64,000 nucleotides of DNA from an uncultured Candidatus Saccharibacteria bacterium (GCA_964349675.1 CAYGHD010000002.1:4012-68011); one strand, 5' to 3'. Positions 1-37,369 are shown, counted from the stretch's first letter. The notes: generated by a model not told the origin, from the letters alone. A program made the numbers and translations.

Positions 1-491
1 GTCCGCAAGCGCGCGATGAGCGAGGATATAAAAAACTAGTCGAGGTGCAGGTGCTCCCACTTTTGGCGGCGCTGCAAAGCTCTATCGAGCAAGCCCATTT
101 TGTGCACGTGGTTGCAGAGCGTTTGCATGTGCCAGAAACTGCAGTGTGTGCAGAAGTACTCAAGCGCCCCAAACTCCCTGAGGTTGCTGAAACGCCTGCT
201 GCCGTGCTGCAAGCAGAAGTGTTTGCGCCGACGCCCTTTGAGCGTAAGGTCGGCATTATTTTATTTTCATTTGCAGCAGAGGCTCCAGAGCGGCAGCGTT
301 TACTTGAGTTGTGTGGGGAACATCGGTTGAGTGAATTGGAGTCGCTTTTGTTGCCACATGCAGAGCGGCTGCGTTTTGAGTTTGAACGAGAGGTGGGGGA
401 GCATTCGACCGCAGAGACTATTGCAGGCGACGTGTTGGGTGATATAGAGCGCGTGGTGACCCGTGAGCGCTTGAAACAAAAGTTTTCATGA
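1..491 (+). CDS. dnaG: DNA primase DnaG, C-terminal fragment (5' partial; gene begins upstream of the window)
   Basis: Open frame runs from the window edge to the stop at 491 and lies immediately upstream of rpoD, the conserved dnaG-rpoD arrangement. The helical C-terminal region resembles the DnaB-interacting domain. No catalytic motifs are in view. Confidence 0.45.
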   Translation, partial: PQARDERGYKKLVEVQVLPLLAALQSSIEQAHFVHVVAERLHVPETAVCAEVLKRPKLPEVAETPAAVLQAEVFAPTPFERKVGIILFSFAAEAPERQRLLELCGEHRLSELESLLLPHAERLRFEFEREVGEHSTAETIAGDVLGDIERVVTRERLKQKFS

Positions 492-13329: not shown

Positions 13330-14035
13330 AGGTGTGGTGTTTAATCATGCGCAGCAGCCAGGTGATGCTTAAAAGCGCGACCACAAACGCGGTGACGTAG
13401 CCTACTGCTAAAGGGGCTATGTGCGCCGTGGTGAATGATTGGTAATTTTTGAGTACGTCTAAGCCCGTTGCGGCTGCCATGGTCGGTACCGCCAAGAGGA
13501 ATGAAAACTCTACAATCGTGTGCCGCCGCAGCCCCAGCAGCAGGCCGCCCACAATGGTCGCTGCCGAACGAGAGACTCCAGGGATTACAGCCAATGCTTG
13601 AAAGAGTCCGACCCCGAGCGCTTGAAGGTATCCAACTTGCTCCACCTCGCCCTCTTTGGCGGGACGCTCTTTGTGGAATAGTTCGAACAAAATAAGCACG
13701 GCACCGCCCAAGGCGAGCGCCCACAGCACTACCTGCTGGTTGCCCACAAGGTGTGCTTTGATGAAGGGGTAGAGCAGTAGCCCAATGACCGCTGTGGGCA
13801 TAAAGCCGACCGCCAGCCGCTTTAAAATTTCGATATCAAGGAACTGCCGCCAATACAGCGCCAACACCGCGCCAATGGCGCCAAGTTGTATTGCAATTTC
13901 AAATGTTTTTACAAAGTCGCTCTGGGGCAGCCCAAGGAGGTGGCTGGCAAGGATGAGGTGGCCGGTTGAGGAGATGGGTAAAAACTCGGTAACACCCTCA
14001 ACAACTCCCAGTATGAATGCTTGCAGCAAGTCCAT
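13268..14035 (-). CDS. uppP: Undecaprenyl-diphosphatase
   Basis: VVEGVTEFLPISSTGHL motif. Multi-TM protein of the BacA family. Confidence 0.9.
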   Translation of the reverse strand: MDLLQAFILGVVEGVTEFLPISSTGHLILASHLLGLPQSDFVKTFEIAIQLGAIGAVLALYWRQFLDIEILKRLAVGFMPTAVIGLLLYPFIKAHLVGNQQVVLWALALGGAVLILFELFHKERPAKEGEVEQVGYLQALGVGLFQALAVIPGVSRSAATIVGGLLLGLRRHTIVEFSFLLAVPTMAAATGLDVLKNYQSFTTAHIAPLAVGYVTAFVVALLSITWLLRMIKHHTFIPFGVYRILVALLFWFLVL

Positions 14036-14145
14036 GTGTTGTATTGTACATGATGAAGGAGAGTATTTACAAAATTACATATAGTTGCATAATTTTTACT
14101 TTTAGGTACTCTTTAATTGTATGTGGCGCCTGGCGCTTCAGACGT

Positions 14146-17100: not shown

Positions 17101-19935
17101 GCCTACAATGCACAAGGGTTGCTGACGCAAGAGACAGACCCCCGCGGCAATACAACAGCATATACCTATGATGCGCGGCTGTTGTATCCAAGCGTGGTGC
17201 GCAATGCCTTGGGGCAGCAAGAGACATACGCATACAATTATGCATTTGGCACAGTGGTGCAAAAAACCGATGCAAATGGGGCGGTATATCAGACGCAATA
17301 CGACCCGCTCGGGCGGGTGGCAGAGGTGCGGGTGCCCGAGCTGGGCGCCACTGCTGTCAAAACGCGGTATCACTATACAGACACCGTGCCGACAATGGTT
17401 AAAAAAATAGACTACCTTGACTCTGCTGTAAGTACTGCGGCAGTTACCTACTATGACGGCCTTGGACATGCCGTGCAGGAAAGAAAGCAGATGGAGGATG
17501 GGATGTTTGGGGTGATTGACTATCAATACGACACCGCGGGGCTTTTGTTGTCGGACTCACTGCCGTATGCGGCGGGTGGTGCTGAAGCGCGGCTTGGCCA
17601 AGCACCTCTGACACTTAAGCGCACCTACACATACACGCCACTTGGCGATGTTGCGTCGGTGACCAACGCTGTTGGAGTGACCACGTTTGCTCGCGACGAC
17701 TGGAGCACCCGGGTGACTGATGCAAAAGGCAAACAAAAAGTGCTCTACACCGACGCGCATGGCAACCTGGCGCAAGTGGACGAGCAGCTTGGCGGCTCGA
17801 CCTATACAACGCGTTATGCATATCAATTGGGGCTGCTGACCCGCATCAGCGATGCTCTGTCTAATGTGCGCGCCTTTGCCTATGACGGGTTGGGCAACCG
17901 TGTGCGTGCAGAAGACCTGCATGCGCCAAGCGACACACAGTTTGGTGTATGGGTGTATGAGTATGATGCTGCAAGTAACCTTATGCAAAGCAAAAATCAA
18001 GCAGGGCAGGTGGTGCGGTATGCATATGACTCGCTCAACAGAGTAACAAGCGAAGATTTTTTGGGTGCCGGCGGCATAGAGAGTGCATTCACCTACGATG
18101 CATGCGCCTTTGGAGTGGGGCGTTTGTGCACAGCAACCATGCGCCCCGGTGTCGCAACTGCATACACCTACAACCCACAAGGGTTGGTTGCCATCGAGCA
18201 AAAAACAATCGGCGCAGGCGTGTATGCAACAGCATATGCATACAACCGGCAAGGGCAGGTGACCCACATGCTCCACCCAGACAACCTTGAGACGCGCTAC
18301 ACGTACAACACCGCAGGGTTGCTTGAGTCTGTGCTGGGCGGAAAGGTGGGTGGTACGCTGGTTGGCGCATCAAATATTAATTACTCGCCCGCAGGGCAGG
18401 TGAGCGGCATGTGGTACACCAACAACACGGTAACCACCAACACCTATGACCCAAACAAATTGTATTGGCTCAAAACCAGACAGACGGTGGGGCCAAACAA
18501 CACCATGGTGCAAAATCTTTCCTACGTCTACGACCCGGTTGGCAACATCACGCGCATTACCGATGCGGCCGATGCAAACGATGTGAAGATGTCGTTGTTT
18601 GCCTATGACGACCTACATCGGCTGGTCATTGCATCAACTACTGCAGCAACAACTACCCCAACCTACCGCTATGTATACCGCTACAATCCGCTTGGCAACA
18701 TGGTGAGCGACTCCACCACCACCTACACCTACGCGGGCACCGGCTATGCAAACCCGCATGCCCCCACCGACCTACGCACAGGCTCATCAACCACCACCTA
18801 CACCTACGACCCCCTCGGCAACCTCACTCACAGAGGAGACACCACCCACACCTTTGACTACCAAAGCCGCCTTACCCAAACCAACATAGGCACCTCCACC
18901 AAAGTGACCTACCGCTACGACCATCAAGACAACCGCGTCTTGGTACACGACGGCATCCAAACCCTCTACCCAACACACCACTACAGCAAACAAGGAGCCA
19001 CCTCCACCCTCTCACTCTTTGCAGGAGACACACTCATAGCAACCCTAGAGTCCAAAGCCACCCGCACCACGCCTACCTACATCCACACCGACCACCTAGG
19101 CAGCACACAGCACACTACTAACCAACAGGGAGCAGTCACCCAAACACTCCAGTACTATCCGTATGGGGAAGCGCAAGCCCACACAGGCACTGCAACCCAG
19201 AGAGAATACATCGGCCAAGTGCACGATGAGGCAAGTGGATTGCTTTACCTGAATGCGCGGTATTATATGGGCAGGGGACAGTTCTTGTCAGAGGACCCGG
19301 TGTTTTGGGAGGTGGGGCAGAGTCTCGAGGATTCAGATATAATGCATTCTCATCAAACAGGATTGTATGCAGTGCCAGGATATGACAATACCCTCGGCAA
19401 AAAGAGTAAAGCTTCTGTTCAAGAGGAATTCCTGCTTGACCCCCAAATGCAGAATTCGTATGGATATGCACGGAATAATCCTATAAATAGGAAAGATCCA
19501 ACTGGAGAACTTCCAATATTGCCAATACTTGCAGTATATTCTGTTATGCAAAATCTTATAAACTTGTACGAAGCAAAAACAGTGTTTTTGGACTACCCAG
19601 AAGTGTTTACTTCACAAGAAAAATGGCAAACTGGATTTAAGGTTGGATTTGATGCAGCGATCTTTGGTGCAGGTCGGGCAACAAAAGATATTGCCACAAA
19701 AACTTTCTTACAAGTTGGGCCCGTTATTCTTGATGTAACAGATCATTTCTTTGCACCACAGATTTATCAAAATATAGATCAGTCGCAAACAAAAAATCGA
19801 TCGCCTATTCTTACTGGATACAATCAAGCGCAGTTATCAGCAATGTCCTCTTTCGCACAATCATTCGGATTCTCTACCCTTTCTCCAATGCAGGTAAAAG
19901 CTGTGGAGCAAGTACGTGCCGTATTCAGTAAATAA
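14146..19935 (+). CDS. Secreted SpvB/FG-GAP/RHS-repeat polymorphic toxin (Tc-toxin TcB-TcC-like fusion) with variable C-terminal toxin domain
   Basis: Signal peptide, then the SpvB motif (GYGWSLSIP). FG-GAP-like D-x-N-x-D-G repeats follow: DANGDGKADIV, DINSDGLDDW, DMNADGLPDY. Many YD/RHS repeats follow: YTYDPLGN, YAYDSLNRV. The RHS core is RYYMGRGQFLSEDP...NPINRKDPTGE. A ~145-aa C-terminal domain follows, with no recognisable family. Confidence 0.85.
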   Translation: MTLYKNTAYAKGFATISIGILLLTPLLSYAQEAALDTPVQQSPSAPVEEVAAPDAPAASAEPQIAAASTAEVARPTIDAPQLFTHGSLAPKVSETTGALTERVELALPPGRGGMTPDLALVYNSQDRKDSIVGYGWSLSIPYIERLNKTGSERMYVDNYFSASQGGELVAAVEANEYRQRIDDGTLYVFKNNVWTAFDKKGIRYTYGQTQAGRQFAAEDPAKVARWMLQEIRDTNDNRIVYAYAKEGSTLYPASITYTNSGATAGAFAVRFAYEARPDTLVSHATGFAVTLQKRLKAVTVLAEGTVVTKYALTYVPGNNGVRSLLSALQQTGYSDGGQQQRPAIQFTYSATPPTYTPKESSQLYNAAHVAADADGNGLPDFALSYQNPVSLQKWMSVDLNMYSVVANRLYPNMPEHWSISVAAPDNYRPAEEGVRFFDANGDGKADIVRSIRMRDGELRQAYYQNESVGSGLSWIPKPNTGLPIFAYNRMRNSYEDVTYSTGLFGNVNGDGLVDYVFSLPQIVYSGLDGTYLHTSEQAGWEFATSTFSPVATMPITTDDTTASQLVDINSDGLDDWMVSAGPATYFCLNTGTGWEANCENGWKIATTTRQETGWDKGIRFIDMNADGLPDYVRAYHMPQYQYLTNGAKPIDTKIYNYVYLNTGSGWATSTLQMPSFIFLGHPTSVSWGGDVEYDEYVDWNGDGFLDSSHMQSEGMIPDVLTTVTYPTGGSIGVTYAFSTKSGENPDLAFPMLLVTDITVNNGLGRSDKTTYSYAGGKWHIPGDVRERRFAGFAKVTAVDPNKTVVTYFNQGDAVSGDGEQSDHVAQIGRAYREDILSPSGALERKTLTRYQTFDQNGAYKVLPVQEVSQDYNQNDTHRDAAKTYTYDPLTGDLLQEVQWGEVAGLANGSFTDMGADTYTAIMRYAPGTAKAMRVLVSETKTDSAGSKLAEAKHYYDGLPLGSATRGMETKTERWQQGAVYSTTLRAYNAQGLLTQETDPRGNTTAYTYDARLLYPSVVRNALGQQETYAYNYAFGTVVQKTDANGAVYQTQYDPLGRVAEVRVPELGATAVKTRYHYTDTVPTMVKKIDYLDSAVSTAAVTYYDGLGHAVQERKQMEDGMFGVIDYQYDTAGLLLSDSLPYAAGGAEARLGQAPLTLKRTYTYTPLGDVASVTNAVGVTTFARDDWSTRVTDAKGKQKVLYTDAHGNLAQVDEQLGGSTYTTRYAYQLGLLTRISDALSNVRAFAYDGLGNRVRAEDLHAPSDTQFGVWVYEYDAASNLMQSKNQAGQVVRYAYDSLNRVTSEDFLGAGGIESAFTYDACAFGVGRLCTATMRPGVATAYTYNPQGLVAIEQKTIGAGVYATAYAYNRQGQVTHMLHPDNLETRYTYNTAGLLESVLGGKVGGTLVGASNINYSPAGQVSGMWYTNNTVTTNTYDPNKLYWLKTRQTVGPNNTMVQNLSYVYDPVGNITRITDAADANDVKMSLFAYDDLHRLVIASTTAATTTPTYRYVYRYNPLGNMVSDSTTTYTYAGTGYANPHAPTDLRTGSSTTTYTYDPLGNLTHRGDTTHTFDYQSRLTQTNIGTSTKVTYRYDHQDNRVLVHDGIQTLYPTHHYSKQGATSTLSLFAGDTLIATLESKATRTTPTYIHTDHLGSTQHTTNQQGAVTQTLQYYPYGEAQAHTGTATQREYIGQVHDEASGLLYLNARYYMGRGQFLSEDPVFWEVGQSLEDSDIMHSHQTGLYAVPGYDNTLGKKSKASVQEEFLLDPQMQNSYGYARNNPINRKDPTGELPILPILAVYSVMQNLINLYEAKTVFLDYPEVFTSQEKWQTGFKVGFDAAIFGAGRATKDIATKTFLQVGPVILDVTDHFFAPQIYQNIDQSQTKNRSPILTGYNQAQLSAMSSFAQSFGFSTLSPMQVKAVEQVRAVFSK

Positions 19936-20263: not shown

Positions 20264-20330
20264 CCAGAATACATTGGCCAAGTACACGATGAGGCAAGTG
20301 GATTGCTTTACCTAAATGCGCGGTATTGAG
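20264..20330 (+). repeat. Orphan duplicate of the RHS core junction (IGQVHDEASGLLYLNARY-stop)
   Basis: About 58 nt nearly identical (3 mismatches) to 19208-19265 inside the RHS gene, followed directly by a stop codon. Confidence 0.65.
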
Positions 20331-26472: not shown

Positions 26473-27420
26473 TCAGACTGTACAGAGATCTTCTTGCGCA
26501 ACGCGCCCTTGCCTCCTTTTCCGGACGTACGGCCCAAGATTCAGATTGCCGAGCGTTGGTTTGGTCTCTGGCACCCCCATTGCCTTTTGGAGTTTTTGAA
26601 TCGCTCTCGCCTCAATTTGGCGCATGCGCTCGCGCGTGACGCCATACTCTGCTCCAAGCTCTGCCAGTGTGAGCGGAGTCTCGGCAAGTCGCCGTTTTGT
26701 AAGCACATCCAGCTCTTTTGGCCTGAGCGTCGAAAGCGCTTGCCGCAAAGCGGCTTTGCGCTGGGTGAGCTCTTCAGCTTCAGCAAACACGGTGTCGTGT
26801 GCTGGAGACGAGTCAATCAAGACGTCCTGCAGCTCCATGTAGGAATCATCGCCAGCAAGCGGCTGGTTGAGGCTGGTGTCGCCACTGAGCCGGCGATGCA
26901 TGTTGACGACATCATCCTCTCCAACGCCCAGCATGTGAGCGATGCGCCTGAGATGCTGTGGCTGAAGGTCGCCATCCTCAAGTGCTCCAACGCTGCTCTT
27001 TGCTTGCCGCAGTTTGAAAAACAGCTTCCGGTCTGCCGAAGTGCTGCTTATCTTCACCATCGACCAGTAGTGCAGCACACCCTGCTTTATTTCCGCATGC
27101 ACCCACCATTGCGCATACGTTGCCAGCCGGGTGTCTCTGTCTGGGTCAAACTTCGCCACTGCTTTGAAGAGGCCGAAGTTCCCCTCGCTGATGCAGTCTG
27201 CAAAAGGCACGTTGTACCCTAAATAGCCTCTGGCTATCTTTGCAACAAGCCGCAGATGGGGGAGTGTCAGCGCATCGAACGCGCGCTGGTCGTTGTGGTC
27301 GCGCAGGCGTTGCGCGAGTCTCGACTCCTCTTCAGGGGTGAGTAGTGGGAACTTTTGGATTTCAGCGAGATACCGCTGCAATCCGTCTGGGGTGTCGCGT
27401 ATCACGGGCACTTTGCTCAT
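26473..27420 (-). CDS. RpoH-like (sigma-32 type, group 3) RNA polymerase sigma factor
   Basis: Collinear with sigma-32 (LRLVAKIARGY, ISEGNFGLFKAVAKFDP), including an RpoH-box-like ADRKLFFKLRQAK. Region 4 HTH is LAELGAEYGVTRERMRQIEARAIQKL. Confidence 0.8.
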   Translation of the reverse strand: MSKVPVIRDTPDGLQRYLAEIQKFPLLTPEEESRLAQRLRDHNDQRAFDALTLPHLRLVAKIARGYLGYNVPFADCISEGNFGLFKAVAKFDPDRDTRLATYAQWWVHAEIKQGVLHYWSMVKISSTSADRKLFFKLRQAKSSVGALEDGDLQPQHLRRIAHMLGVGEDDVVNMHRRLSGDTSLNQPLAGDDSYMELQDVLIDSSPAHDTVFAEAEELTQRKAALRQALSTLRPKELDVLTKRRLAETPLTLAELGAEYGVTRERMRQIEARAIQKLQKAMGVPETKPTLGNLNLGPYVRKRRQGRVAQEDLCTV

Positions 27421-29191: not shown

Positions 29192-29215
29192 CTATTTTCT
29201 GAAATAGTTGAAAAC

Positions 29216-29250
29216 AAAAAACCGCTGGGCATAAGCTCGGCGGTTTTTTG
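29216..29250 (+). terminator. Probable intrinsic terminator
   Basis: aaaaccgc...gcggtttttt hairpin plus T-run after the PG-binding gene. Confidence 0.4.
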
Positions 29251-29303
29251 TTTTGTGCAATAAAAAACACTGCCAGTTTGGGGCCTGGCAGTGCGAGCGG
29301 GCT

Positions 29304-29866: not shown

Positions 29867-30168
29867 TCCGGTGTAGCTCAATGGTAGAGCAGCTCCCTGT
29901 CTAAAGGCAGCCTTTCAGAGGAATCTGAATTGAAAAACGAGGTGAATTCGGGGAAACCCCTCTGGGGCAATCCCGAGCCAAGCTCCAACCACATGTTGGA
30001 GAAGGTGTAGAGACTATCCCGAAAGGGAGTAGCCTTGCAATGTGCAGGGCGAAGCGCCTCGCATCCGACAACTTCTTGTAAGTTGGGATGATGATATAGT
30101 CCACGCCCGCAGCAATGGGGGATTCACGTGTAAGGAGTTGGTTCCAGGTTCGAGTCCTGGCGCCGGAG
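29867..30168 (+). tRNA. tRNA-Asn(GUU) interrupted by a 230-nt intron between anticodon-loop positions 35 and 36
   Basis: 5' exon 29867-29900 is TCCGGTG-TA-GCTC-AATGGTA-GAGC-A-GCTCC-CTGT. 3' exon 30131-30168 is TAA-GGAGT-TGGTT-CCAGG-TTCGAGT-CCTGG-CGCCGGA-G. All four stems pair; U8, A14, GG18-19 and the T-loop are canonical. U1-A72 and G73 are as in bacterial tRNA-Asn. The spliced loop is CUGUUAA. Confidence 0.8.
29901..30130 (+). ncRNA. Group I (IC3-like) self-splicing intron within tRNA-Asn
   Basis: Strong resemblance to the conserved IC3 core of cyanobacterial tRNA-Leu and Azoarcus tRNA-Ile introns: GGGAAACC...CAATCCCGAGCCAAGC...GAGAAGGTGTAGAGACTAT...ATAGTCC. P1 can form between exon CUGU|C and intronic GGCAG with a U.G wobble at the 5' splice site. 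The intron ends in G. Confidence 0.75.
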
Positions 30169-30180
30169 CCGCTGACATAA

Positions 30181-30203
30181 ACCGCCTGCAATGGGCGGTT
30201 TTG
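30181..30203 (+). terminator. Intrinsic terminator downstream of tRNA-Asn
   Basis: accgcc-tgcaat-gggcggt followed by tttt. Confidence 0.5.
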
Positions 30204-30355
30204 TCGTATGCGGCTCCGAGCGAGGAAGTGTGGGACACTTCCGTCCAGAACTCGAACGCCGGAGCGGGCCCCGCGTCAGCAGATGCGGGAGCGAGGCGCG
30301 GCTAGTAAAAAATTTTGTGACGACAAAGTTTTTATGCGGAGCCGAGTCCTGGCGC

Positions 30356-31003
30356 TCAATCTCGAAAATGGGGCCTGACCCCAACTCCTCTCGGCACCAT
30401 TTCCTGTCGTATGTAGGGAGGATTGCCGATGACGTGTGTAAACTTTTGTTCAAACGCGGTGAGGAGGAAGTCGCCCTGAATCAGCCAGGACGCGAGCACA
30501 GTATCGGCTTGCGTCGCGTCGAGGCCATTCTCTTGCAGGATTTTCTTGAGAGTGCCTTTTGTCTTTTCGAATGATTCGATATGAAGTTCAACCGCCCTGA
30601 TACTGTTTTTTAGAAGCTCTGCGGTCGGCTTCAGTTTTTGGTTGCGAAGTGATTCCATCAAACGCTCCACGGCCGGGATAAGAAAATCGCCGTGCCCGAA
30701 CGAGGGTTCGAGGAGGCTCATGAATTGCAATTTCTGCGACGGCCAATATTCAACCAGATCGAGGATAAAATCGGCTACTTCGCGGCGTGTAAAGACCGCT
30801 CCGCGGTCCTCGGTATTAGCCCCGGCGAGTGTCGCAACGGCAGACGCAAGAAGCTCATTTTCGAATGGGAGTCCTATCGTTCGTGCCTTTGTGGTGCTCA
30901 CGTTCATTACACCTATTTTACCACTTTTACTTGCAACAAAGCTACGCCACCTACCCCTTCTGTAGGTGATAAAATGGAACTCCATAGCGACGCGAATGCC
31001 CTC
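30356..31003 (-). pseudogene. Truncated N6-adenine DNA methyltransferase (gamma-class, motif I then motif IV NPPY), lacks target-recognition domain
   Basis: AVFTRREVADFILDLV..LEPSFGHGDFL...IGNPPY, then stop 18 aa later. The truncation point abuts a partial copy of the tRNA 3' end (30338-30350). Confidence 0.55.
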
Positions 31004-31071
31004 GGTCGAGCCGGGGCATTTTCGTTGGTTTACAAAAAAGAAAGGGCGCGACCACTTGGTAGCGCCCAGTT

Positions 31072-32193
31072 TCAAACCGACAACCTTACCGGTTTGTAAG
31101 TGTTGCGAAGATCGGCCGGTGAGAACACGAACTGACCTACGCTGATACGTCCAGAACCGAACCCGGCGATGTAGAGCGAGAGATAGAAATCGTATTTGCG
31201 ATAGTACCGCAGTCCGTACATTTTTACGATCTCGTTTCGATGTCGAACTAGGTTCTCGCGCCACCCGACAAACGTTTTCACGTAGTCTTCGGGAAAGAGC
31301 TCCTGATCGAGTAGATGAAAGATATCCTGCGTGGCTTCTCTGATCTGACCGAGCGTCGGAAGCATTCCGTTCGGGAAGATGTGTTTCTCCGTCCATGGAT
31401 CCATCGTTGCACGCTTATCGCATGCAAGGATGCACTGCATAACAAAGACTCCATCTTTTCGTGCAAGCGAGTCGCACGCTTTTTGGAAGTACTCCCGATA
31501 GTGGCTTGGACCCACATGCTCGATGACGCAAATGGACACGACCGCATCAACCTTGCCACTAAAGTCACGGTAGTCTTGCAGTCGAAACTCCAGAGGTAAA
31601 TCGCGGTACCTTTCTGCAGCGTACTTACGCTGCGTTTGAGATATCGTGAGTCCGATGCCACTAGAGCCATAGTGCTGTCCTGCGTAGCCGAGAAAACCGC
31701 CCCAGCCAGAGCCGATGTCGAGCACCGTCTTACCGGTCCCGAGAAAAGCTTTCCTGCAGATCAAATCCATCTTCTGGTCTTGCGCCTCATCAAGTAACAA
31801 GACGCCATCCCATCGTCCGCACGTGTAGTTGGTCGTGCGGCCGAGTAAGATGTCGAAGAATTGCGGATCCTCATCGTAGTGCACTTCAGCGACTCGTTTC
31901 GAACGAGTACGGTTTTGCGCGTCGATCACGCCGAAGCGGAGTCTCCTCAGCAACACATCAAGGCGAGGTATCCTGAGATGGATGCCAGATTTTATGATTC
32001 GCTCTATAAGTCCAGCGATATCCGAGCAGTTCCACCAGCCATCCATGTAAGAATCGCCGAGGCCAACAGAACCTTGTAAAAGAACACGCCGGTACCATCG
32101 ATTATCCAGGATCTGCGGATCCCATAGATTTGGGCCGTTGATCACTATTCCAGCTGCCCCGAAAAGGCGCTGGATCGCGAACTTCGCAACCAT
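31072..32193 (-). CDS. cfa: Cyclopropane-fatty-acyl-phospholipid synthase-family SAM-dependent methyltransferase
   Basis: VLDIGSGWGGFLGYAGQHYG SAM motif. DAVVSICVIEHVG and the C-terminal region are typical of the CFA/mycolic acid cyclopropane synthase family. Confidence 0.75.
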   Translation of the reverse strand: MVAKFAIQRLFGAAGIVINGPNLWDPQILDNRWYRRVLLQGSVGLGDSYMDGWWNCSDIAGLIERIIKSGIHLRIPRLDVLLRRLRFGVIDAQNRTRSKRVAEVHYDEDPQFFDILLGRTTNYTCGRWDGVLLLDEAQDQKMDLICRKAFLGTGKTVLDIGSGWGGFLGYAGQHYGSSGIGLTISQTQRKYAAERYRDLPLEFRLQDYRDFSGKVDAVVSICVIEHVGPSHYREYFQKACDSLARKDGVFVMQCILACDKRATMDPWTEKHIFPNGMLPTLGQIREATQDIFHLLDQELFPEDYVKTFVGWRENLVRHRNEIVKMYGLRYYRKYDFYLSLYIAGFGSGRISVGQFVFSPADLRNTYKPVRLSV

Positions 32194-32307
32194 CAGAACC
32201 TCCTCAAGGTTGGATTTGTGGACACGATCGTCCGTTGACGAATATACCAAGGAAATTTCTTATCGGCTATCCAGGCATTTTCGTTGGTTTTTTGCTAAGC
32301 TTAGGGC

Positions 32308-32886
32308 ATGGAAATTGGCATTTGGGGAGACAGCATAACTTACGGCGAAAGCGACTCCGAGGCCCTTGGGTGGGTTGGCAGACTGCGGAAATCTACATCT
32401 GTAGACGAAGATAAACAGGTCTACAATCGCGGAATCTGTGGCAACACAACTGAAGATTTACTCAAGCGTTTTAAGGTGGAAGCTGACTCCCTTGAGCCAA
32501 ATATCGTGGTATTTGCTATCGGCATAAACGACTCAAAGTATCCGGTCGGAGAGCAAACAAATAAGATTTCACTTGAGCAGTTTAAGAAAAATATCGAGTC
32601 TCTTTTGCAGCAAGCAAAAGTCTACACGCAGACGATTTTCGTTGTCGGGGCTACGCAAGTTGATGAGGAGGTTGTGTCGCAATGGAAAGATAGCTCGCTC
32701 TTTTACAATGCGGAGATACAAAAATATAACGACGTTTTGAAAGAGACCGCTGCTTCCAGCGGTGTTTCGTATGTGGATGTGTCTGAAGTTTTAGATGCAA
32801 AAACTGATTTGCATGATGGGCTGCACCCAAATGCAAAGGGGTATGAAAAACTTGCGATGGCAATAAAAAGCGAAATTAAAATATGA
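32308..32886 (+). CDS. SGNH/GDSL-family hydrolase
   Basis: GDSITYG block I, GxND block III (AIGINDS) and DGLHPN block V. Confidence 0.7.
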   Translation: MEIGIWGDSITYGESDSEALGWVGRLRKSTSVDEDKQVYNRGICGNTTEDLLKRFKVEADSLEPNIVVFAIGINDSKYPVGEQTNKISLEQFKKNIESLLQQAKVYTQTIFVVGATQVDEEVVSQWKDSSLFYNAEIQKYNDVLKETAASSGVSYVDVSEVLDAKTDLHDGLHPNAKGYEKLAMAIKSEIKI

Positions 32887-33428
32887 ATCTGACTTTTATA
32901 ACCGGAAATGCCGCTAAAGCCGAGCAACTTGGTAAACATTTAGACCACCCTGTAGCTCACAAGAAATTGGACTTACCCGAGATTCAGTCTTTAGACCTGC
33001 ATGAAATTATCGAGCACAAGACCAAGGAAGCGTATAAACAAATTGGCGGCGTAGCACTTGTGGAGGATACCTCCCTTACTTTTAAGGCCTTGGGTAGATT
33101 GCCAGGCCCACTCATAAAGTGGTTTCTTACAGAGTTGGATAATGCAGGGCTCTGTAAACTCTTGGACGGTTACGAGGATAGGTCTGCAGTTGCGGAAGTG
33201 TGTTTCGGTCTTTACGACGGTAAAGAGCTAAAGATGTTCGATGGCAAAGCTCATGGCTCCATCGCTACTGTGCCGCGTGGTGAAAGAGGATTTGGCTGGG
33301 ATCCAGTGTTTATTCCCGAAGGTCACCATAAGACTTGGGGCGAAATGGATCCGGAGGAGCAGAAAGAAACCTCTATGCGTCGTATAGCCCTTAAGAAATT
33401 GGAGGCATATCTCAAACAAAATGGCTAA
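32883..33428 (+). CDS. rdgB: Non-canonical purine NTP pyrophosphatase (RdgB/HAM1 family)
   Basis: FITGNAAK, EDTSL, GFGWDPVFIPEG and SMRRIA motifs. Confidence 0.85.
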   Translation: MNLTFITGNAAKAEQLGKHLDHPVAHKKLDLPEIQSLDLHEIIEHKTKEAYKQIGGVALVEDTSLTFKALGRLPGPLIKWFLTELDNAGLCKLLDGYEDRSAVAEVCFGLYDGKELKMFDGKAHGSIATVPRGERGFGWDPVFIPEGHHKTWGEMDPEEQKETSMRRIALKKLEAYLKQNG

Positions 33429-33756
33429 GACTTACTCAGGCACTATTGTTGAGAGCAGTCTTTCCGACAAAAATGTCCTCGACCAACTCCAAGTAATCAA
33501 AAAATATCCCTCTGGGGGTTGGACTTTGTACGATGTCTTGGTTAACGAGGAGCAGATACCGCAGCTCGCCAAATCTTTGGCGAACGGTCCCTGGTATATC
33601 CACCTGTGGCAGCCCGGGCAAGACGAAGTAAAAGTGATCTTTAAAGATAAAGTTTTTTCTATTAAATATTCCGACAAATCTACCTGGGTTGGCGTGGTCG
33701 CTTACGGAAAGTCCATCGGCATACCGGACGAGCAACTCGACTTCCCAATAAACTAA
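33421..33756 (+). CDS. Hypothetical protein
   Basis: ORF translationally coupled to rdgB. No recognisable motif. Confidence 0.3.
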   Translation: MAKTYSGTIVESSLSDKNVLDQLQVIKKYPSGGWTLYDVLVNEEQIPQLAKSLANGPWYIHLWQPGQDEVKVIFKDKVFSIKYSDKSTWVGVVAYGKSIGIPDEQLDFPIN

Positions 33757-33817
33757 GCACGCAGACTTACGTGAATGCACGCAACTAAACGCCTCTCATT
33801 CACTAAAATCTCGCCTT

Positions 33818-34135
33818 TTAGCGTGAATTGGTCTGCGGCCTTACTCTTTCCATCCACTTCATCGTTTCCTCGTCAAACGGCTCCTCGCCCCGGAGCATTT
33901 TGACGGCAGCCTCCATCTCGTAGGACTTGTAGCCGTTCAAAATAACGGTTCGAAGTTCCTGCGCTGCTCGGAGCTTGGTTAGCAACAAATCGCCTTTGGG
34001 CGATTTTTGCGTTACAAGCCCCAGGCGAGGAAGCAACTTGAGTTGCTTCCGTCCAGGACTCGAAAGGGTTGAGTCTATCGTAGCGAGTTTGTAAAACGAA
34101 GCGAGATACAAAACCCATACTGTTGCTGTAAGCAA
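33818..34135 (-). CDS. Hypothetical protein
   Basis: ORF only. Confidence 0.2.
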   Translation of the reverse strand: MLTATVWVLYLASFYKLATIDSTLSSPGRKQLKLLPRLGLVTQKSPKGDLLLTKLRAAQELRTVILNGYKSYEMEAAVKMLRGEEPFDEETMKWMERVRPQTNSR

Positions 34136-34515
34136 AGAGTCCTATTTTGACGCCAGAATAACTCTTGACCCATTTATATTTTATAAGCACAATACCTCCG
34201 GTATGTGTGTTTCTCTTGGGAGAATAAGGCAATGAAAGACAGTGCAACGGGTGCGTGGTGTGCCCTTTGGTCGGGGGTCAAGGTGTCTGGATGGACGCCT
34301 GCAGCCTTGTTGCTTGTGATGTGCGCCGTGCCCATCGTGCACGGTTGCCTGAGCGAAAGCGGGCCGGCGCTAGAGCCCTGCAGCATCTTTGAGGCAGGGG
34401 ACGCTGGCCGCCTTTGCGCAAAAGCAATCATGATGCGTGGCGGGGGACTACCCTGAGTAAATTATCCAACAACGCGCGATAGACCATTTCCACCCCAGAC
34501 AGCAAAGTCTGGGGT

Positions 34516-34620
34516 ATTTTTTTATTCCCTATACGTCGCCGTGTTATTTTTTATAGCCTCCACACTTTTGGGTACGCACTTTGCACAGGTCTGACCTGTG
34601 CAGCAGGTTCATACGGGGGA
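34516..34620 (+). repeat. Intergenic repeat element, copy A (contains perfect palindrome gcacaggtctgacctgtgc)
   Basis: Shares tttattcc...ttatagcctccac.cttttggg.acgcact.tg.cag.tctgacctg.gcagca...acggggga with copies at 36125-36210 and 37263-37369. Confidence 0.55.
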
Positions 34621-34718
34621 GCCTGTGCTTTACAGAACTATTTTAATGTGATATATTAGTAGGTAGTCGAATCACAGCATGCCCCTCCTGCCGTGTTAGC
34701 ACAACACAGGAGAGAAGA

Positions 34719-35180
34719 ATGACTTTACTAACAGGCCTCGGCATCGACGAGCATGAGGTGAGGTGCTGCCCTGACTGTGGGGCAAGGGAGGTGCGTGTAG
34801 CTGCGGAGAGTCGCAGCCTAAACCACACGCATGGTAGTGCTGTGAAATTGAGTGTTGTGATACCTATCTGGACCTGCAAGGATTGTAGGTTTGCCTACAC
34901 AGATGGGCGCGGACAGCAGATTGAGCAGGAGGCAGTTGAAAGTTTTTTGCAACGTCGGCTATTGCCACACGAAGTGCGTAGTATACGAGTTGTTTTGGGT
35001 TTGTCGCGAGAGCAATTCGCTCTACTGACAGGCTATGGAACGGCGACGATTAAACGCTGGGAAAATGGTACGCTGGTGCAAAACGCATCAGCTGACCGAT
35101 TCTTGCGGTTGATTGCTGACAGTGAAGTGGCACAAAAACTGCTGCGACTCGGAAAGGAGATAGATGCAGCGAATAAATAG
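34719..35180 (+). CDS. MqsA-family zinc-ribbon + XRE-HTH antitoxin-like regulator (orphan; no MqsR-like partner seen)
   Basis: N-terminal CPDCG...CKDC zinc ribbon. C-terminal LGLSREQFALLTGYGTATIKRWENGT HTH, collinear with MqsA. Confidence 0.6.
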   Translation: MTLLTGLGIDEHEVRCCPDCGAREVRVAAESRSLNHTHGSAVKLSVVIPIWTCKDCRFAYTDGRGQQIEQEAVESFLQRRLLPHEVRSIRVVLGLSREQFALLTGYGTATIKRWENGTLVQNASADRFLRLIADSEVAQKLLRLGKEIDAANK

Positions 35181-35272
35181 ATACGACACCCGGTCCACTT
35201 GGCCGGGTTTTCTTTTACCTAAAGTAGGTCCCAACCCCGAGAACTTTTACGGGGGCGTGCTATCTTTCTAGA

Positions 35273-36061
35273 ATGAACGAATTTTCCAAAGAACTCAATG
35301 CAGCAAAAAAGATAGCTCGACAAGCCGGAGAGATAATGCTCAGGTATTTTTCCGACGAACTAATTGTTGAGCGGAAAAATGACGACTCTCCCGTTACGAA
35401 AGCTGATATTGAAATAAATCGTCTTGTTATTGAAGAGTTGGGAAAGCAATTTAACGATGGTATTGTCGGTGAGGAAGAGAGTACTGCGGAGTATGGAATG
35501 GGTCGAAGATGGATATGCGACCCAATTGATGGCACGAGAGCTTTTACTTGGGGTTTGCCAACATCAATGTTTTCGCTTGGACTCGCCATAGACGGAATCC
35601 CAGTGCTGGGCGTTGCATACGACCCTTTCCTTGATCTCCTCTATGAAGCAACAAAAGATAGTGAAAGCCTTTGTAATGGCAAGCCTATCCACGTATCGTC
35701 TGTTGGAATTACAGGTGCCTCAATTGCTGTCTCTGGTAGTCCAGAGAAACTTTTAGACGACCCTTCACAAGCCGCCCTCCTCGCACGTCTCGTCGAGAAA
35801 AAAGTACGTATCGTTGGTTTTAGTGGATCGGTATATCGTGCATGTCTGGTCGCGCGTGGAAGACTTGCCGGTTATGTTGAAAAAAATATAAATACACACG
35901 ACCTTGCTGCTGTGGAAGTTATACTGAAACAAGCGGGTGGCATGATTACTGATTTTGAAGGGAAACAGTTGGATTACAGCAAGGCTTTTAAAGGGGCGGT
36001 TATTTCTAACTCGGTCGTTCATGCGGATCTTTTGGAGTGTGTAGCTGGTCTTGATTGGTAG
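35273..36061 (+). CDS. Inositol monophosphatase family protein (SuhB/CysQ-like)
   Basis: EE..TAEY metal-binding segment, WICDPIDGT motif and C-terminal DxxxGG region. Confidence 0.8.
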   Translation: MNEFSKELNAAKKIARQAGEIMLRYFSDELIVERKNDDSPVTKADIEINRLVIEELGKQFNDGIVGEEESTAEYGMGRRWICDPIDGTRAFTWGLPTSMFSLGLAIDGIPVLGVAYDPFLDLLYEATKDSESLCNGKPIHVSSVGITGASIAVSGSPEKLLDDPSQAALLARLVEKKVRIVGFSGSVYRACLVARGRLAGYVEKNINTHDLAAVEVILKQAGGMITDFEGKQLDYSKAFKGAVISNSVVHADLLECVAGLDW

Positions 36062-36124
36062 AAACTTGACGTTTTAGTCATAATGTGGAACTTCGCAACC
36101 TTAAAGCCGCCTTTCCACAAGGCG

Positions 36125-36210
36125 GCTTTTCTTTTTATTCTATATACACCACCGCTCTAGTCTCTATAGCCTCCACGCTTTTGGGTACACACTTTTGCAA
36201 ACTAGGGGAC
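36125..36210 (+). repeat. Intergenic repeat element, copy B (palindrome deleted), fused to terminator hairpin 36103-36137
   Basis: See copy A. Preceded by aaagccgcc-tttccacaa-ggcggcttt hairpin and T-run. Confidence 0.5.
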
Positions 36211-36692
36211 AGTAGGGGCAGCGCGTTTTCTAGAGGCATAAAAATGTATTCCTCAAGCTCCCCAGTGTCTAGTTTTATTGATGCAATTTGATCGTCGGTT
36301 AGCGTGCCGCCATAGAAGACAAATTTAAGAGAGTCTGGGTATACTCCTTTTTTGTGTGCAAAATATATTCCTACCAGTTGTAGCGTTATCGCGCTCAATC
36401 CAATTTCTTCCCGCGTCTCTCGCAGGGCGCAGTGGAGCGGGGATTCATCTTCGTCGGCTGCTCCGCCAGGCACCAACCATTCTTCCCTGTAATCTGGTTT
36501 AACTACAAGCAATTCGTTTTTGGAGTTAAAAAACAGCACCGCAGTCCCAACCTGTTTCTTGGGCAGCAGGGCGGCATACTCTTCGTCGGTATATTTTTTT
36601 ACCACACGCACATCATAGCATTGAGAAGCCCCGCCCGTTTCTTGTAAGGGAAGAGTCCTGGCGCCGGAGCAAAAGTTGACAATTATTTGCAT
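36135..36692 (-). CDS. NUDIX hydrolase
   Basis: Nudix box GGAADEDESPLHCALRETREEIGL. The start is uncertain: ATG 36692 or a GTG near 36610. Confidence 0.75.
   Translation of the reverse strand: MQIIVNFCSGARTLPLQETGGASQCYDVRVVKKYTDEEYAALLPKKQVGTAVLFFNSKNELLVVKPDYREEWLVPGGAADEDESPLHCALRETREEIGLSAITLQLVGIYFAHKKGVYPDSLKFVFYGGTLTDDQIASIKLDTGELEEYIFMPLENALPLLSPSLQKCVPKSVEAIETRAVVYIE
36653..36670 (+). repeat. 18-bp direct repeat of the tRNA-Asn 3' end (att-like island boundary)
   Basis: gagtcctggcgccggagc is identical to 30152-30169. Confidence 0.55.
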
Positions 36693-36729
36693 TTTGTTTT
36701 AAATATTTTCTGAACAGCATGCTCTGCAA

Positions 36730-37227
36730 ATGCACAGCAGTAAGGAGGAGAAAATGTTTCAGCTTCTGATGAAAAAGTTCTTCGGCGATAAAGATAGAGT
36801 GAGTACAACCGCCCACCTGGAAGAAAAGAGTGGGAATGCCTACATCACGCCTGAGCTTCACCGTGAGATGCTCGCAAAGAAGGCTGCTGTTGCGGAAAGG
36901 CGGGGAGTCTTTAAGCGCACATGCTCTTTTGAAGATTGGCAAAGGCGAGAGTTTGAGCTGCAAACACGCATTAGGACAAACAACCCTATGTCTTTCAAAT
37001 GGGTTGAAGATACGGAAGGAACGCCAGTCGGTTTTCCGTTGTTTGTTTTTCACATCACCATGCATGACATGTTTCCGTCTGCCTGCAACCAGTTTCTAAC
37101 AGAAGAAACTTTGATCGCGGGTCTCAGGTGCAACGCGGTAAGTTGTGGTCGCTTTGTGCAGATCGACAAGCACGAGGGATTCATTGAGGTGCAGCCTCGG
37201 TGGGTCGAAGATCTCGGGGCAGAGTAA
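36730..37227 (+). CDS. Hypothetical protein
   Basis: ORF with a terminator hairpin at 37235-37275. No recognisable domain. Confidence 0.3.
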   Translation: MHSSKEEKMFQLLMKKFFGDKDRVSTTAHLEEKSGNAYITPELHREMLAKKAAVAERRGVFKRTCSFEDWQRREFELQTRIRTNNPMSFKWVEDTEGTPVGFPLFVFHITMHDMFPSACNQFLTEETLIAGLRCNAVSCGRFVQIDKHEGFIEVQPRWVEDLGAE

Positions 37228-37262
37228 CTGCGTGCCGCCACCTCGTCTCGGACGAGATGGCG

Positions 37263-37369
37263 GTTTTTCTTTTTATTCCACATACACCACCACGTTAGTG
37301 TTTATAGCCTCCACGCTTTTGGGCACGCACTCTGTGCAGTCTGACCTGCGCAGCAAATAAGACGGGGGA
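37263..37369 (+). repeat. Intergenic repeat element, copy C, fused to terminator hairpin 37235-37275
   Basis: See copy A. 13-bp stem ccgccacctcgtc/gacgagatggcgg, a T-run, then the conserved block with GGCACG-N4 motif and palindrome. Confidence 0.55.

What the first reader, a model, noticed from the sequence alone, without database searches (positions are those of the whole stretch)
34516..37369. Three-copy ~100-bp intergenic repeat: terminator hairpin + conserved block with sigma-54-like GG-N10-GC motif and a perfect palindrome
Copies at 34516-34620, 36125-36210 and 37263-37369 share TTTTTCTTTTTATTC.A.ATACACCACC...TATAGCCTCCACGCTTTTGGG(T/C)ACGCACT.TG.CAG.TCTGACCTG.GCAGCA...ACGGGGGA, with roughly 80-90% identity in the conserved block.

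Copies B and C begin immediately after strong stem-loops that end upstream genes. Copies A and C sit upstream of plus-strand genes: the MqsA-like regulator and the 366-aa membrane protein.

Within the block, GGTACG/GGCACG-N4-TTGC matches the -24/-12 spacing of RpoN promoters in copy A. TGCACAGGTCTGACCTGTGCA is a perfect 21-bp palindrome (regulator operator-like) that is deleted in copy B.

The short ORFs translated from these copies (GGFSFYS.YTT.LV.IASTLLGTH) are artefacts of nucleotide conservation.

This could be a mobile promoter/operator cassette, an sRNA family or a MITE.
Basis: seen in the sequence. Interest (0 to 1): 0.55.

Follow-up and report, generated by a model that had tools for sequence, protein, structure and literature searches.

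The report
Duplicated NUDIX gene-end relics
The three-copy "intergenic repeat" is the last ~20 codons of a NUDIX hydrolase gene on the opposite strand: one copy is the end of the working gene, and two are dead fragments joined to a palindrome that belongs to a neighbouring regulator gene, so it is a scar of gene shuffling in a candidate-phyla-radiation bacterium, not a sigma-54 promoter, small RNA or MITE.

Summary
The repeat is real: three direct copies, 79-86% identical, with none expected by chance. On the minus strand the conserved block reads (K/E)CVPKSVEAI...Y.E-stop. That is the native C-terminus of a 156-aa Parcubacteria NUDIX family.

- **Copy B** is the 3' end of the only intact NUDIX gene (36135-36692, minus strand).
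- **Copies A and C** are truncated, in-frame relics of that 3' end.
- **Core variation:** of six changes in the 10-codon core across A, B and C, five are synonymous third-position changes.

A and C are cut at the same codon and fused to the same ~45-nt arm (21-bp palindrome ... ACGGGGGA). This arm is the left end of a 645-bp module (34579-35223) holding a promoter, an MqsA-family gene and a terminator. The module recurs at 94% identity in another metagenome without any NUDIX tail, and its palindrome there carries a compensatory change.

The sigma-54 match occurs only in copy A and is at chance level. There is no Rfam hit, no shared RNA fold, no terminal inverted repeats and no integrase nearby.

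The locus lies in a hypervariable region next to an intron-containing tRNA. Terminator hairpins and junction pieces persist there while genes are swapped. This is an ordinary kind of feature with modest interest. How the duplication arose is unresolved.

The parts
34492..34515 (+). Hairpin A plus T-run: terminator-like stem-loop ending the upstream plus-strand ORF.
   Evidence: Found. A 98% identical copy lies in L001 729-775, behind different genes.
34522..34581 (-). Copy A: truncated relic of a NUDIX 3' end. It reads KCVPKSVEAIKNNTATYRE-stop and has no start codon or gene body.
   Evidence: Translation. tblastn E=2e-4 with the 40-aa tail query (0.01 with the full-length protein). The 30-nt core is identical to the functional L001 gene. 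The penultimate residue is R, where all 14 aligned sequences (window, L001 and 12 database homologs) have I, V or L.
34582..34602 (.). Perfect 21-bp palindrome TGCACAGGTCTGACCTGTGCA, the left end of the MqsA module. ACGGGGGA follows at 34613-34620.
   Evidence: Sequence. Hairpin z-score -2.45. Conserved with a compensatory A:T to G:C change in L004 and L005, and present at L001 149-169.
34579..35223 (+). 645-bp MqsA-family gene module. It comprises the palindrome, a sigma-70-like promoter (34629-34657), the gene (34719-35180) and a terminator (35188-35208).
   Evidence: 93.6% identical to L004 2240-2884 and L005 3310-3954, with both flanks unrelated. TIGR03830 scores 68.9 bits against a cutoff of 61.8. 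Promoter and terminator.
35273..36061 (+). Inositol-monophosphatase-family gene, convergent with NUDIX.
   Evidence: Pfam PF00459, E=5e-46.
36103..36129 (+). Hairpin B plus T-run, a shared terminator between the phosphatase gene and NUDIX. Its stem base GCCGCC...GGCGG is shared with hairpin C.
   Evidence: The B-C hairpin/T-run segment matches at 16/20 positions.
36135..36194 (-). Copy B: the functional 3' end (KCVPKSVEAIETRAVVYIE-stop) of the intact NUDIX gene.
   Evidence: The tail is conserved in all 14 aligned sequences (window, L001 and 12 database homologs).
36135..36692 (-). The only intact NUDIX hydrolase gene. The mechanical ORF is 185 aa. The true start is probably near 36605, giving ~156 aa as in homologs.
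   Evidence: Pfam PF00293. 151 homologs, mostly 156 aa. Alignment A1. tblastn finds no second gene body.
36653..36670 (+). Exact 18-nt copy of the tRNA 3' end (GAGTCCTGGCGCCGGAGC) inside a conserved promoter-upstream motif of the 165-aa gene. Homology to L001 stops here.
36730..37227 (+). 165-aa gene of unknown function, divergent from NUDIX. The same pairing occurs in L002.
   Evidence: No family hits. L002 alignment.
37234..37268 (+). Hairpin C plus T-run.
   Evidence: core 37243-37260. 89% identical to L004 3526-3560, where it sits behind an unrelated 171-aa gene.
37273..37332 (-). Copy C: truncated relic of a NUDIX 3' end, reading ECVPKSVEAINTNVVVYVE-stop.
   Evidence: Translation. tblastn E=2e-6 with the 40-aa tail query (5e-4 with the full-length protein). 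The stop-plus-distal-tail segment matches the functional L001 gene at 28/30 positions. Only a mechanical 27-codon TTG ORF overlaps it.
37332..37369 (.). C-type arm: imperfect palindrome CTGTGCAG-TCTGAC-CTGCGCAG (37332-37353) followed by ACGGGGGA (37362-37369).
   Evidence: The arm matches copy A at 33 of 47 aligned positions. Hairpin z-score -2.4. Half of it is deleted in L004. It is absent upstream of homologs of the downstream 366-aa gene.

Best explanation
**What it is (shown).** The conserved ~60-nt block is the last ~19 codons plus the stop codon of a NUDIX hydrolase gene on the minus strand. A short T/A-rich spacer separates it from a convergent terminator hairpin. Copy B is the living end of the only intact gene. 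Copies A and C are dead 3'-end fragments.

The block is conserved because it was recently under protein-coding selection, not because it acts as a promoter or an RNA.

Both relics are cut at the same codon, just 5' of (K/E)CVPK. Both are fused there to the same ~45-nt arm (palindrome ... ACGGGGGA). That arm is the left end of a self-contained 645-bp module: palindrome, sigma-70-like promoter, MqsA-family HTH gene and terminator.

**How it arose (inferred).** A palindrome-led module was joined once to a NUDIX gene at a 7-8-nt microhomology. The NUDIX sequence there is CACTTTTGCA and the module starts CTTTGC(A/G)CAGG. This truncated the gene.

The tail-plus-arm junction was then spread and reshuffled by homologous exchange within the shared tail and hairpins. 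Copy C is a chimera: its hairpin base and T-run resemble B, and its arm resembles A. An intact NUDIX copy was retained or re-acquired.

**What the pieces do now (inferred).**
- The hairpins terminate the upstream plus-strand genes.
- Palindrome A is probably the operator of the MqsA-family regulator.
- The relic tails have no function except as patches of homology.
For: **Coding origin**
- The minus-strand frames of A, B and C read (K/E)CVPKSVEAI...Y.E-stop.
- This tail is native to the family, as shown by 14 aligned sequences (window, L001 and 12 database homologs).
- tblastn finds one intact gene plus the two relics and nothing else.
- Intact 3' ends from L001, L002 and L003 align across the whole block, down to the stop codon and T-run, each beside an unrelated hairpin.
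- In the 10-codon core, A is identical to the functional L001 gene. B differs only at 2 synonymous third positions. C has 2 synonymous changes plus K to E.

**The arm belongs to the MqsA module**
- L004 and L005 share 34579-35223 at 93.6% identity. The homology starts exactly at the junction, and the left flank there is not a NUDIX tail.
- The palindrome keeps its symmetry through a double change.

**Shared ancestry of the junction**
- L001 carries the same palindrome-tail junction and hairpin A. There it is split by a 143-aa gene module and lies on the other side of NUDIX.

**Chimeric structure of C**
- Segment identities are given.

**Relics decay**
- In L004 the C-type site has lost the tail and half the palindrome.
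- L001's relic has an internal deletion and an insertion.

**No recombinase**
- None appears in the Pfam, NCBIfam or PHROGs scans of ORFs between 26 and 45 kb.
Against: - **History not reconstructed.** Only three related genomes give context. The order of events is unknown, and copy C lies on the 5' side of the intact gene, which no simple scheme predicts.
- **Relics look young or refreshed.** A and C are about as similar to the functional L001 tail (89% and 88%) as the resident tail B is (88%). That argues for either young relics or gene conversion. It is also what recurrent site-specific capture would give.
- **Different NUDIX alleles.** A and C derive from different alleles, with different distal tails and hairpins, yet they share the same cut point. 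One illegitimate event explains this only if later exchange occurred.
- **Operator role untested.** The palindrome lies 27 nt upstream of the -35 box. Its half-sites (AGGT-N3-ACCT) are in the opposite order to the E. coli MqsA site AACCT-N3-AGGTT (PMC4894380).
Confidence: 0.7

Rival explanations
1. **Integrase-type target duplication.** Small integrative elements (or their decayed, integrase-less remnants) inserted site-specifically into the 3' end of NUDIX. They carried a replacement tail, as prophage e14 does at icd or ICESt elements do at fda. On this view A is the displaced original tail (attR-like), B is the element-borne tail that restores the gene (attL-like), and C is an attP-like joint left by accretion.
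For: - Direct repeats of a gene's 3' end flank a 1.6-kb insert while the gene stays intact.
- C shares its left arm with B and its right arm with A, as attP relates to attL and attR.
- A and C come from different NUDIX alleles but are cut at the same codon.
- The same locus also holds duplicated tRNA 3' ends flanking a 3.8-kb insert.
- Precedents are documented: PMC6379469 for e14/icd', and PMC5704250 for CIMEs and accretion.
Against: - No integrase or recombinase is found in the ORFs scanned between 26 and 45 kb.
- The MqsA module sits in L004 with no NUDIX tail at its left end.
- Five loci of more distant orthologs (four distinct contexts) have no extra tails within up to ~10 kb of fetched flank, less on some sides.
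- C lies upstream of the NUDIX body, not between B and A as tandem accretion predicts.
- The arm pattern has no match in the metagenome or viral collections.
Confidence: 0.22
2. **Functional regulatory or recombination cassette.** The hairpin, block and palindrome are maintained as a terminator-promoter/operator unit, like the PeSL cassettes of T4-type phages. Such a unit would insulate and drive downstream genes, and its copies would serve as exchange points for single-gene modules.
For: - Each copy follows a terminator, and A and C precede plus-strand genes.
- Hairpin A and hairpin C persist at 98% and 89% identity in relatives behind unrelated genes.
- A palindrome-plus-promoter arrangement also occurs in L001, in front of a third gene.
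- The PeSL precedent is PMC2839356.
Against: - Conservation of the block is fully explained by coding.
- A sigma-70-like promoter is predicted only downstream of A.
- The sigma-54 match is at chance level and occurs in one copy only.
- The C-type arm is half deleted in L004 and absent upstream of orthologs of the 366-aa gene.
- There are only three copies.
Confidence: 0.1
3. **Small RNA family, MITE, or short protein gene.** The last option would be the 27-codon ORF at 37273-37356 on the minus strand.
For: - The palindrome hairpin is stable (z about -2.4).
- Two single-arm variants retain G-U pairing on the plus strand.
- A mechanical 27-codon ORF exists in copy C.
Against: - No Rfam hit at E<=1.
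- The folds of A, B and C differ, and B's z-score is +0.9.
- There is no promoter upstream and no terminator downstream of the block.
- There are no terminal inverted repeats or target-site duplications (junctions).
- Copy A has no ORF in that frame.
- The collections yielded no match other than the orthologous locus L001.
Confidence: 0.03

Closest known systems
Pseudo-3' end left by integration into a protein-coding gene (e14 prophage at icd, 163-bp icd'; PMC6379469)
   Same: A short direct duplicate of the 3' end of a protein gene flanks inserted DNA. The gene stays intact with an alternative tail that differs by a few, mostly conservative, codons.
   Different: No integrase or phage genes are present. 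The insert is only 1.6 kb (a regulator and a phosphatase). A third copy lies on the 5' side of the gene. The relic is fused to the promoter region of a gene module that also occurs elsewhere without the tail.
CIMEs and tandem accretion at the 3' end of a target gene (ICESt1/ICESt3 at fda; reviewed in PMC5704250)
   Same: [quoted passage not shown] Several events stack at one locus.
   Different: No functional partner element or integrase is visible. The order of the copies does not fit simple accretion. The site is not reused in more distant relatives.
PeSL promoter-early stem-loop cassettes of T4-type phages (PMC2839356, PMC4122927)
   Same: Short conserved terminator and promoter sequences lie between small, mostly unknown genes in a hyperplastic region. 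Between close relatives the genes differ while the junction sequences persist.
   Different: This is a bacterial (CPR) chromosome, not a phage. There are three copies rather than dozens. The hairpins differ between copies. The conserved core is a gene fragment, not a promoter. No mini-circles have been shown.
MqsA operator palindromes, 5'-AACCT(N)3AGGTT (PMC4894380)
   Same: A palindrome built from ACCT/AGGT tetranucleotides with a 3-nt spacer sits upstream of an MqsA-family gene.
   Different: The half-sites are in the opposite order (AGGT-CTG-ACCT). The site lies upstream of the -35 box. No MqsR-like toxin gene is adjacent. Binding has not been tested.

Membership tests
Gene 3'-end relic (pseudogene fragment) of the NUDIX family | In-frame similarity to the family's C-terminus, including the stop codon | tested here: met
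   The frames of A and C read (K/E)CVPKSVEAI...Y.E-stop. tblastn E-values are 2e-6 for C and 2e-4 for A with the 40-aa tail query (5e-4 and 0.01 with the full-length protein). The tail is conserved in 14 aligned sequences (window, L001 and 12 database homologs).
Gene 3'-end relic (pseudogene fragment) of the NUDIX family | The substitution pattern reflects past coding constraint | tested here: met
   Across A, B, C and L001, the 10 core codons vary at synonymous third positions apart from one K to E change in C.
Gene 3'-end relic (pseudogene fragment) of the NUDIX family | Truncated, with no start codon or gene body | tested here: met
   A stop codon lies 29 codons upstream in A. No ORF in that frame is listed for A, and C has only a 27-codon TTG ORF. 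There is no second NUDIX body in the window.
Sigma-54 (RpoN) promoter | GG-N10-GC spacing with the TGGCAC-N5-TTGCW consensus conserved across copies | tested here: not met
   Only copy A matches, with 2 mismatches at 34570-34585. B and C do not match.
Sigma-54 (RpoN) promoter | Match stronger than chance | tested here: not met
   56 matches with at most 2 mismatches occur in the window, against 50.7 +/- 7.7 in shuffles.
Sigma-54 (RpoN) promoter | rpoN gene present in the genome | not testable with these tools
   Only the window (from a 77.7-kb contig) is available. The sole sigma factor seen among the ORFs scanned (26-45 kb) is sigma-70 type, at 26473-27420.
MITE | Terminal inverted repeats and target-site duplication | tested here: not met
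   No inverted repeat bounds the unit. The junctions show no direct duplication.
MITE | Many dispersed copies | tested here: not met
   There are 3 copies in 64 kb, all within 2.9 kb. One orthologous locus was found in 185,579 species genomes, and none in the metagenome contigs. The core pattern was not run against the viral contigs.
Structured small RNA or cis-regulatory RNA | Match to a described family | tested here: not met
   Rfam gives nothing at gathering threshold or at E<=1.
Structured small RNA or cis-regulatory RNA | Shared secondary structure | tested here: not met
   Only the palindrome hairpin in A and C is stable. The block folds differently in each copy, and B's z-score is +0.93.
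Integrase-mediated att duplication (e14/icd-like, CIME-like) | Direct repeats of the target gene's 3' end flank the insert and the gene stays intact | tested here: met
Integrase-mediated att duplication (e14/icd-like, CIME-like) | Integrase or recombinase gene in or next to the element | tested here: not met
   None is found in the ORFs scanned between 26 and 45 kb with Pfam, NCBIfam and PHROGs. Several ORFs of unknown function remain.
Integrase-mediated att duplication (e14/icd-like, CIME-like) | The same site is used again in other genomes | tested here: not met
   No extra tails occur in five loci of more distant orthologs (four distinct contexts), within up to ~10 kb of fetched flank and less on some sides. 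The module in L004 is not at a NUDIX tail.
PeSL-like promoter-terminator shuffling cassette | One conserved motif holding a strong promoter and a stem-loop | tested here: inconclusive
   The hairpins differ (A versus B/C). A sigma-70-like promoter is predicted only after A.
PeSL-like promoter-terminator shuffling cassette | Gene insertions and replacements between close relatives are bounded by the motif | tested here: met
   Hairpin A (L001) and hairpin C (L004) are conserved behind unrelated genes, and the module boundary falls at the palindrome.
PeSL-like promoter-terminator shuffling cassette | Circular recombination products | not testable with these tools
   This needs raw reads or PCR.
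MqsA operator | Palindrome upstream of an MqsA-family gene and conserved with it | tested here: met
   TIGR03830 scores above its cutoff. The palindrome is retained with the gene in L004 and L005, with a compensatory change.
MqsA operator | Sequence 5'-AACCT(N)3AGGTT | tested here: not met
   The site here reads CAGGT-CTG-ACCTG, with the half-sites in the opposite order (PMC4894380).

The most novel reading that the evidence does not exclude
The hairpin, tail relic and palindrome junctions, together with the tRNA-end-like promoter motif, could be working exchange points of a recombinase-independent, PeSL-like system. Such a system would shuffle single-gene promoter-gene-terminator modules within a hyperplastic region of candidate-phyla-radiation genomes. 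Alternatively, the 645-bp palindrome-led MqsA-family module could itself be a small mobile unit that targets a specific codon of NUDIX.
Probability: 0.12. Interest if true: 0.6.

Novelty: new member of a known kind. Interest (0 to 1): 0.25.

Why it matters
The main value is corrective. A striking "conserved intergenic motif" with promoter-like and operator-like features turns out to be a gene-end fragment read on the wrong strand. That guards against annotating a false sigma-54 promoter, small RNA or MITE.

A second point concerns how small CPR (Parcubacteria) genomes vary. The stretch between an intron-containing tRNA gene and the S30AE-fmt-def genes is a mosaic of single-gene modules. Close relatives differ by module swaps whose breakpoints fall at terminator hairpins, a palindrome and promoter motifs, with no recombinase in view.

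If that pattern proves general, it would be a useful handle on how these reduced genomes acquire accessory genes.

Tried and rejected
1. **Phage origin.** megablast of 33-39 kb against phage records found nothing. The window carries housekeeping genes.
2. **Sigma-54 promoter.** Rejected: one copy only, and at chance level.
3. **Known RNA family or shared fold.** Rejected.
4. **Further copies in public collections.**
   - The core pattern gave one orthologous locus in genome contigs and none in the metagenome contigs.
   - The arm pattern gave none in the metagenome or viral contigs.
   - These scans need exact matches, so diverged copies would be missed.
5. **A second NUDIX gene body to pair with relic C.** None found in the window.
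6. **The C junction as a conserved upstream region of the 366-aa gene.** Rejected, because it is absent in L012 and L013.
7. **The L001 359-aa gene as an ortholog of the window's 366-aa gene.** Not similar.
8. **The 165-aa gene as the conserved CTP-transferase-like or 157-aa neighbour of NUDIX.** Not similar.
9. **NUDIX-tail relics as a recurrent hotspot.** None found near five loci of more distant orthologs.
10. **Transposon hallmarks at the ends of the 645-bp module.** None seen when reading the junctions.
11. **A full reconstruction of the order of rearrangements.** Not possible from three related genomes.


Full report
**1.

Three direct copies sit at the stated coordinates.
- The repeat finder family D1 covers 34508-34580, 36121-36193 and 37259-37331.
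- The 21-nt core matches three times, against none expected in shuffles.
- Self-BLAST gives A~C 79% over 102 nt, B~C 86% over 73 nt, and A~B 80% over 64 nt.

Every copy begins at the T-run of a terminator-like hairpin, and the three hairpins are not the same sequence.

**2. What the conserved block is**

The only sizeable ORF that touches a copy is the NUDIX hydrolase ORF on the minus strand, 36135-36692 (Pfam PF00293). It reads into copy B and ends ...LLSPSLQKCVPKSVEAIETRAVVYIE-stop.

This tail is not a read-through artefact.
- 151 homologs were found, most of them 156 aa, from Parcubacteria/Patescibacteria metagenome bins.
- In a 14-sequence alignment (window, L001 and 12 of those homologs) every sequence carries the same tail. 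The family consensus is ...LLSSSLQKSVPxCLEAIKNNTVAYIE.

Translated in the same frame:
- Copy A reads ...KCVPKSVEAIKNNTATYRE-stop.
- Copy C reads ...ECVPKSVEAINTNVVVYVE-stop.

tblastn of the NUDIX protein against the window finds one intact gene plus exactly these two fragments. Intact NUDIX 3' ends from three other assemblies (L001, L002, L003) align with the whole block, down to the stop codon and T-run. Each lies beside an unrelated hairpin.

Within the ten core codons:
- A is identical to the functional gene of L001.
- B differs at two synonymous third positions.
- C has two synonymous changes and one K to E change.

So the block is conserved because it is, or recently was, coding sequence. 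A has no ORF in that frame, and C has only a 27-codon mechanical ORF. A also has R at the penultimate position, where all 14 aligned sequences have I, V or L.

**3. The part shared only by A and C**

Just 5' of the KCVPK codons, the NUDIX homology stops in A and C. Both continue with the same ~45 nt: the palindrome, then ACGGGGGA. The two arms match at 33 of 47 aligned positions, while A against B over the same stretch is at noise level.

This arm belongs to the neighbouring gene, which encodes an MqsA-family zinc-ribbon/HTH protein (TIGR03830, 68.9 bits against a cutoff of 61.8).

Two Logan assemblies (L004, L005) carry a 93%-identical protein. Their DNA matches the window over 34579-35223 at 93.6%. 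That 645-bp unit runs from the palindrome, through a sigma-70-like promoter (34629-34657) and the gene, to its terminator (35188-35208).

Both flanks of the unit differ in L004, and the left flank there is not a NUDIX tail. The junction in A is therefore a fusion of two unrelated things.

In L004 the palindrome reads TGCGCAGGTCAGACCTGCGCT, against TGCACAGGTCTGACCTGTGCA in the window. This is a mirrored A:T to G:C double change that keeps the symmetry. It suggests the dyad matters, most simply as the regulator's operator. The E. coli MqsA site is AACCT-N3-AGGTT (PMC4894380). The site here has the same tetranucleotides in the opposite order, so the resemblance is a lead and not a membership.

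**4. Comparative context**

The only public genome hit to the core pattern is a MAG labelled Candidatus Nomurabacteria (L001).
- Its NUDIX gene is 86% identical in DNA.
- It also has hairpin A at 98% identity, with the last five relic codons.
- About 530 nt away it has the palindrome joined to the start of the relic.
- So L001 holds the ortholog of copy A. There it is split by an inserted 143-aa gene module and lies on the other side of NUDIX.

L004 has hairpin C (89%) behind an unrelated 171-aa gene. It is followed by a C-type arm that has lost the tail and half the palindrome.

Homologs of the 366-aa gene downstream of C have neither tail nor arm upstream.

More distant NUDIX orthologs sit mostly in a conserved context: a CTP-transferase-like or unannotated gene reading leftward, then NUDIX reading rightward, then (in four of the five loci) a phosphoribosyltransferase gene reading leftward. 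They show no extra tails within the fetched flanks of up to ~10 kb.

The junction therefore arose in this lineage, predates the split of the window organism from L001, and is decaying differently in each genome.

By segment, C resembles B in the hairpin base and T-run (16/20, against 9-10/20 for pairs that include A). C resembles A in the arm.

**5. Other readings tested**

- **Sigma-54:** the match with 2 mismatches occurs in A only, spans the fusion point, and is one of 56 in the window against 50.7 expected.
- **RNA:** Rfam finds nothing at gathering threshold or at E<=1. Only the palindrome hairpin is stable, and the folds of the block differ between copies.
- **MITE:** there are no terminal inverted repeats or target duplications, only three clustered copies, and no hits to the arm pattern in the metagenome or viral collections.
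- **Recombinase:** no integrase is found in the ORFs scanned between 26 and 45 kb.

**6. Most likely mechanism**

Shown:
- The repeat is a NUDIX 3' end, live in B and dead in A and C.
- The relics are fused at one codon to the left end of the MqsA-family module.

Inferred:
- The fusion formed once at a short microhomology. NUDIX reads CACTTTTGCA there, and the module starts CTTTGC(A/G)CAGG.
- The junction was later copied and recombined through the shared tail and hairpins, which explains the chimeric copy C.
- An intact NUDIX copy was retained or re-acquired.

The main rival is integrase-type insertion with an element-borne replacement tail, as for e14 at icd (PMC6379469) or CIME accretion (PMC5704250). 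It fits the attL/attR/attP-like pattern and the shared cut point. It lacks an integrase, reuse of the site in other genomes, and the expected order of copies. I give it about 0.2.

A PeSL-like functional cassette (PMC2839356) is a weaker rival at about 0.1. A small RNA, MITE or micro-ORF is unlikely.

**7. Verdict**

This is a new instance of a known kind of feature: gene-fragment scars at recombination junctions. The idea that the palindrome is operator-like survives, and is in fact strengthened. Interest is modest.

The residual novelty lies in the module-by-module mosaicism of this CPR locus, with no visible recombinase.

Noticed in passing
window 29867-30170 (+): A tRNA gene is interrupted in its anticodon loop by a 230-nt group I intron. 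ARAGORN in intron mode calls it tRNA-Thr(UGU), and Rfam RF00028 matches 29886-30122 at 62.6 bits. The default tRNA scan missed it. The whole gene is about 90% conserved in the related MAG (L001 4257-4745). The exact splice site, and therefore the anticodon, was not verified.
   Followed up: partly
window 30172-33975: A ~3.8-kb insertion lies at the 3' end of that tRNA relative to the related MAG. A degenerate copy of the tRNA 3' end (33950-33975) is followed by the flank that directly follows the tRNA in L001. The cargo is two methyltransferase-like genes, a GDSL lipase, a Ham1-family pyrophosphatase and a 111-aa ORF. No integrase was detected.
   Followed up: partly
window 36651-36670 and 34135-34160; L002 ~205-231 (-); L004 2905-2935 and 1984: A recurring motif AAGAGTCCT(ATG.)CTGGCGCCGGAGC sits just upstream of -35 boxes. 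The window copy at 36653-36670 matches the tRNA 3' end exactly over 18 nt. It may be decayed att relics that now sit in promoter regions. It marks the other ends of the swapped modules.
   Followed up: partly
window ~30.2-43.6 kb compared with L004 and L001: The region between the tRNA and the S30AE-fmt-def genes is hypervariable among close relatives. L004 shares only the MqsA module, hairpin C and the S30AE/fmt end. The region consists largely of single-gene units of unknown function, each with its own promoter-like and terminator-like sites.
   Followed up: partly
window 14017-19935 (+), 19203-19264 and 20266-20327: A 1972-aa SpvB/FG-GAP/RHS-repeat protein is encoded here. The 62 nt that encode its core-end motif (EYIGQVHDEASGLLYLNARY) recur at 95% identity 1063 nt downstream, after an 84-aa ORF. 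This looks like an orphan Rhs toxin-tip cassette. If so, it is a second case in this window of a duplicated gene fragment serving as a recombination handle.
   Followed up: partly
window 34719-35180; L006 2-918: The MqsA-family gene has no adjacent MqsR-like toxin gene in the window or in L004. In a more distant homolog locus (L006), a 151-aa ORF ends exactly where the MqsA-like gene starts, which could be a toxin partner.
   Followed up: no
L001 201-728: In the related MAG, a 143-aa gene module with its own promoter-like region and hairpin is inserted inside the copy-A relic, between GCTATAAAAAA and CGTATAGGGAATAA.
   Followed up: no
window 29211-29254: A 44-nt near-palindrome (86% self-complementary) follows the peptidoglycan-binding-domain gene. 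It is probably a terminator.
   Followed up: no
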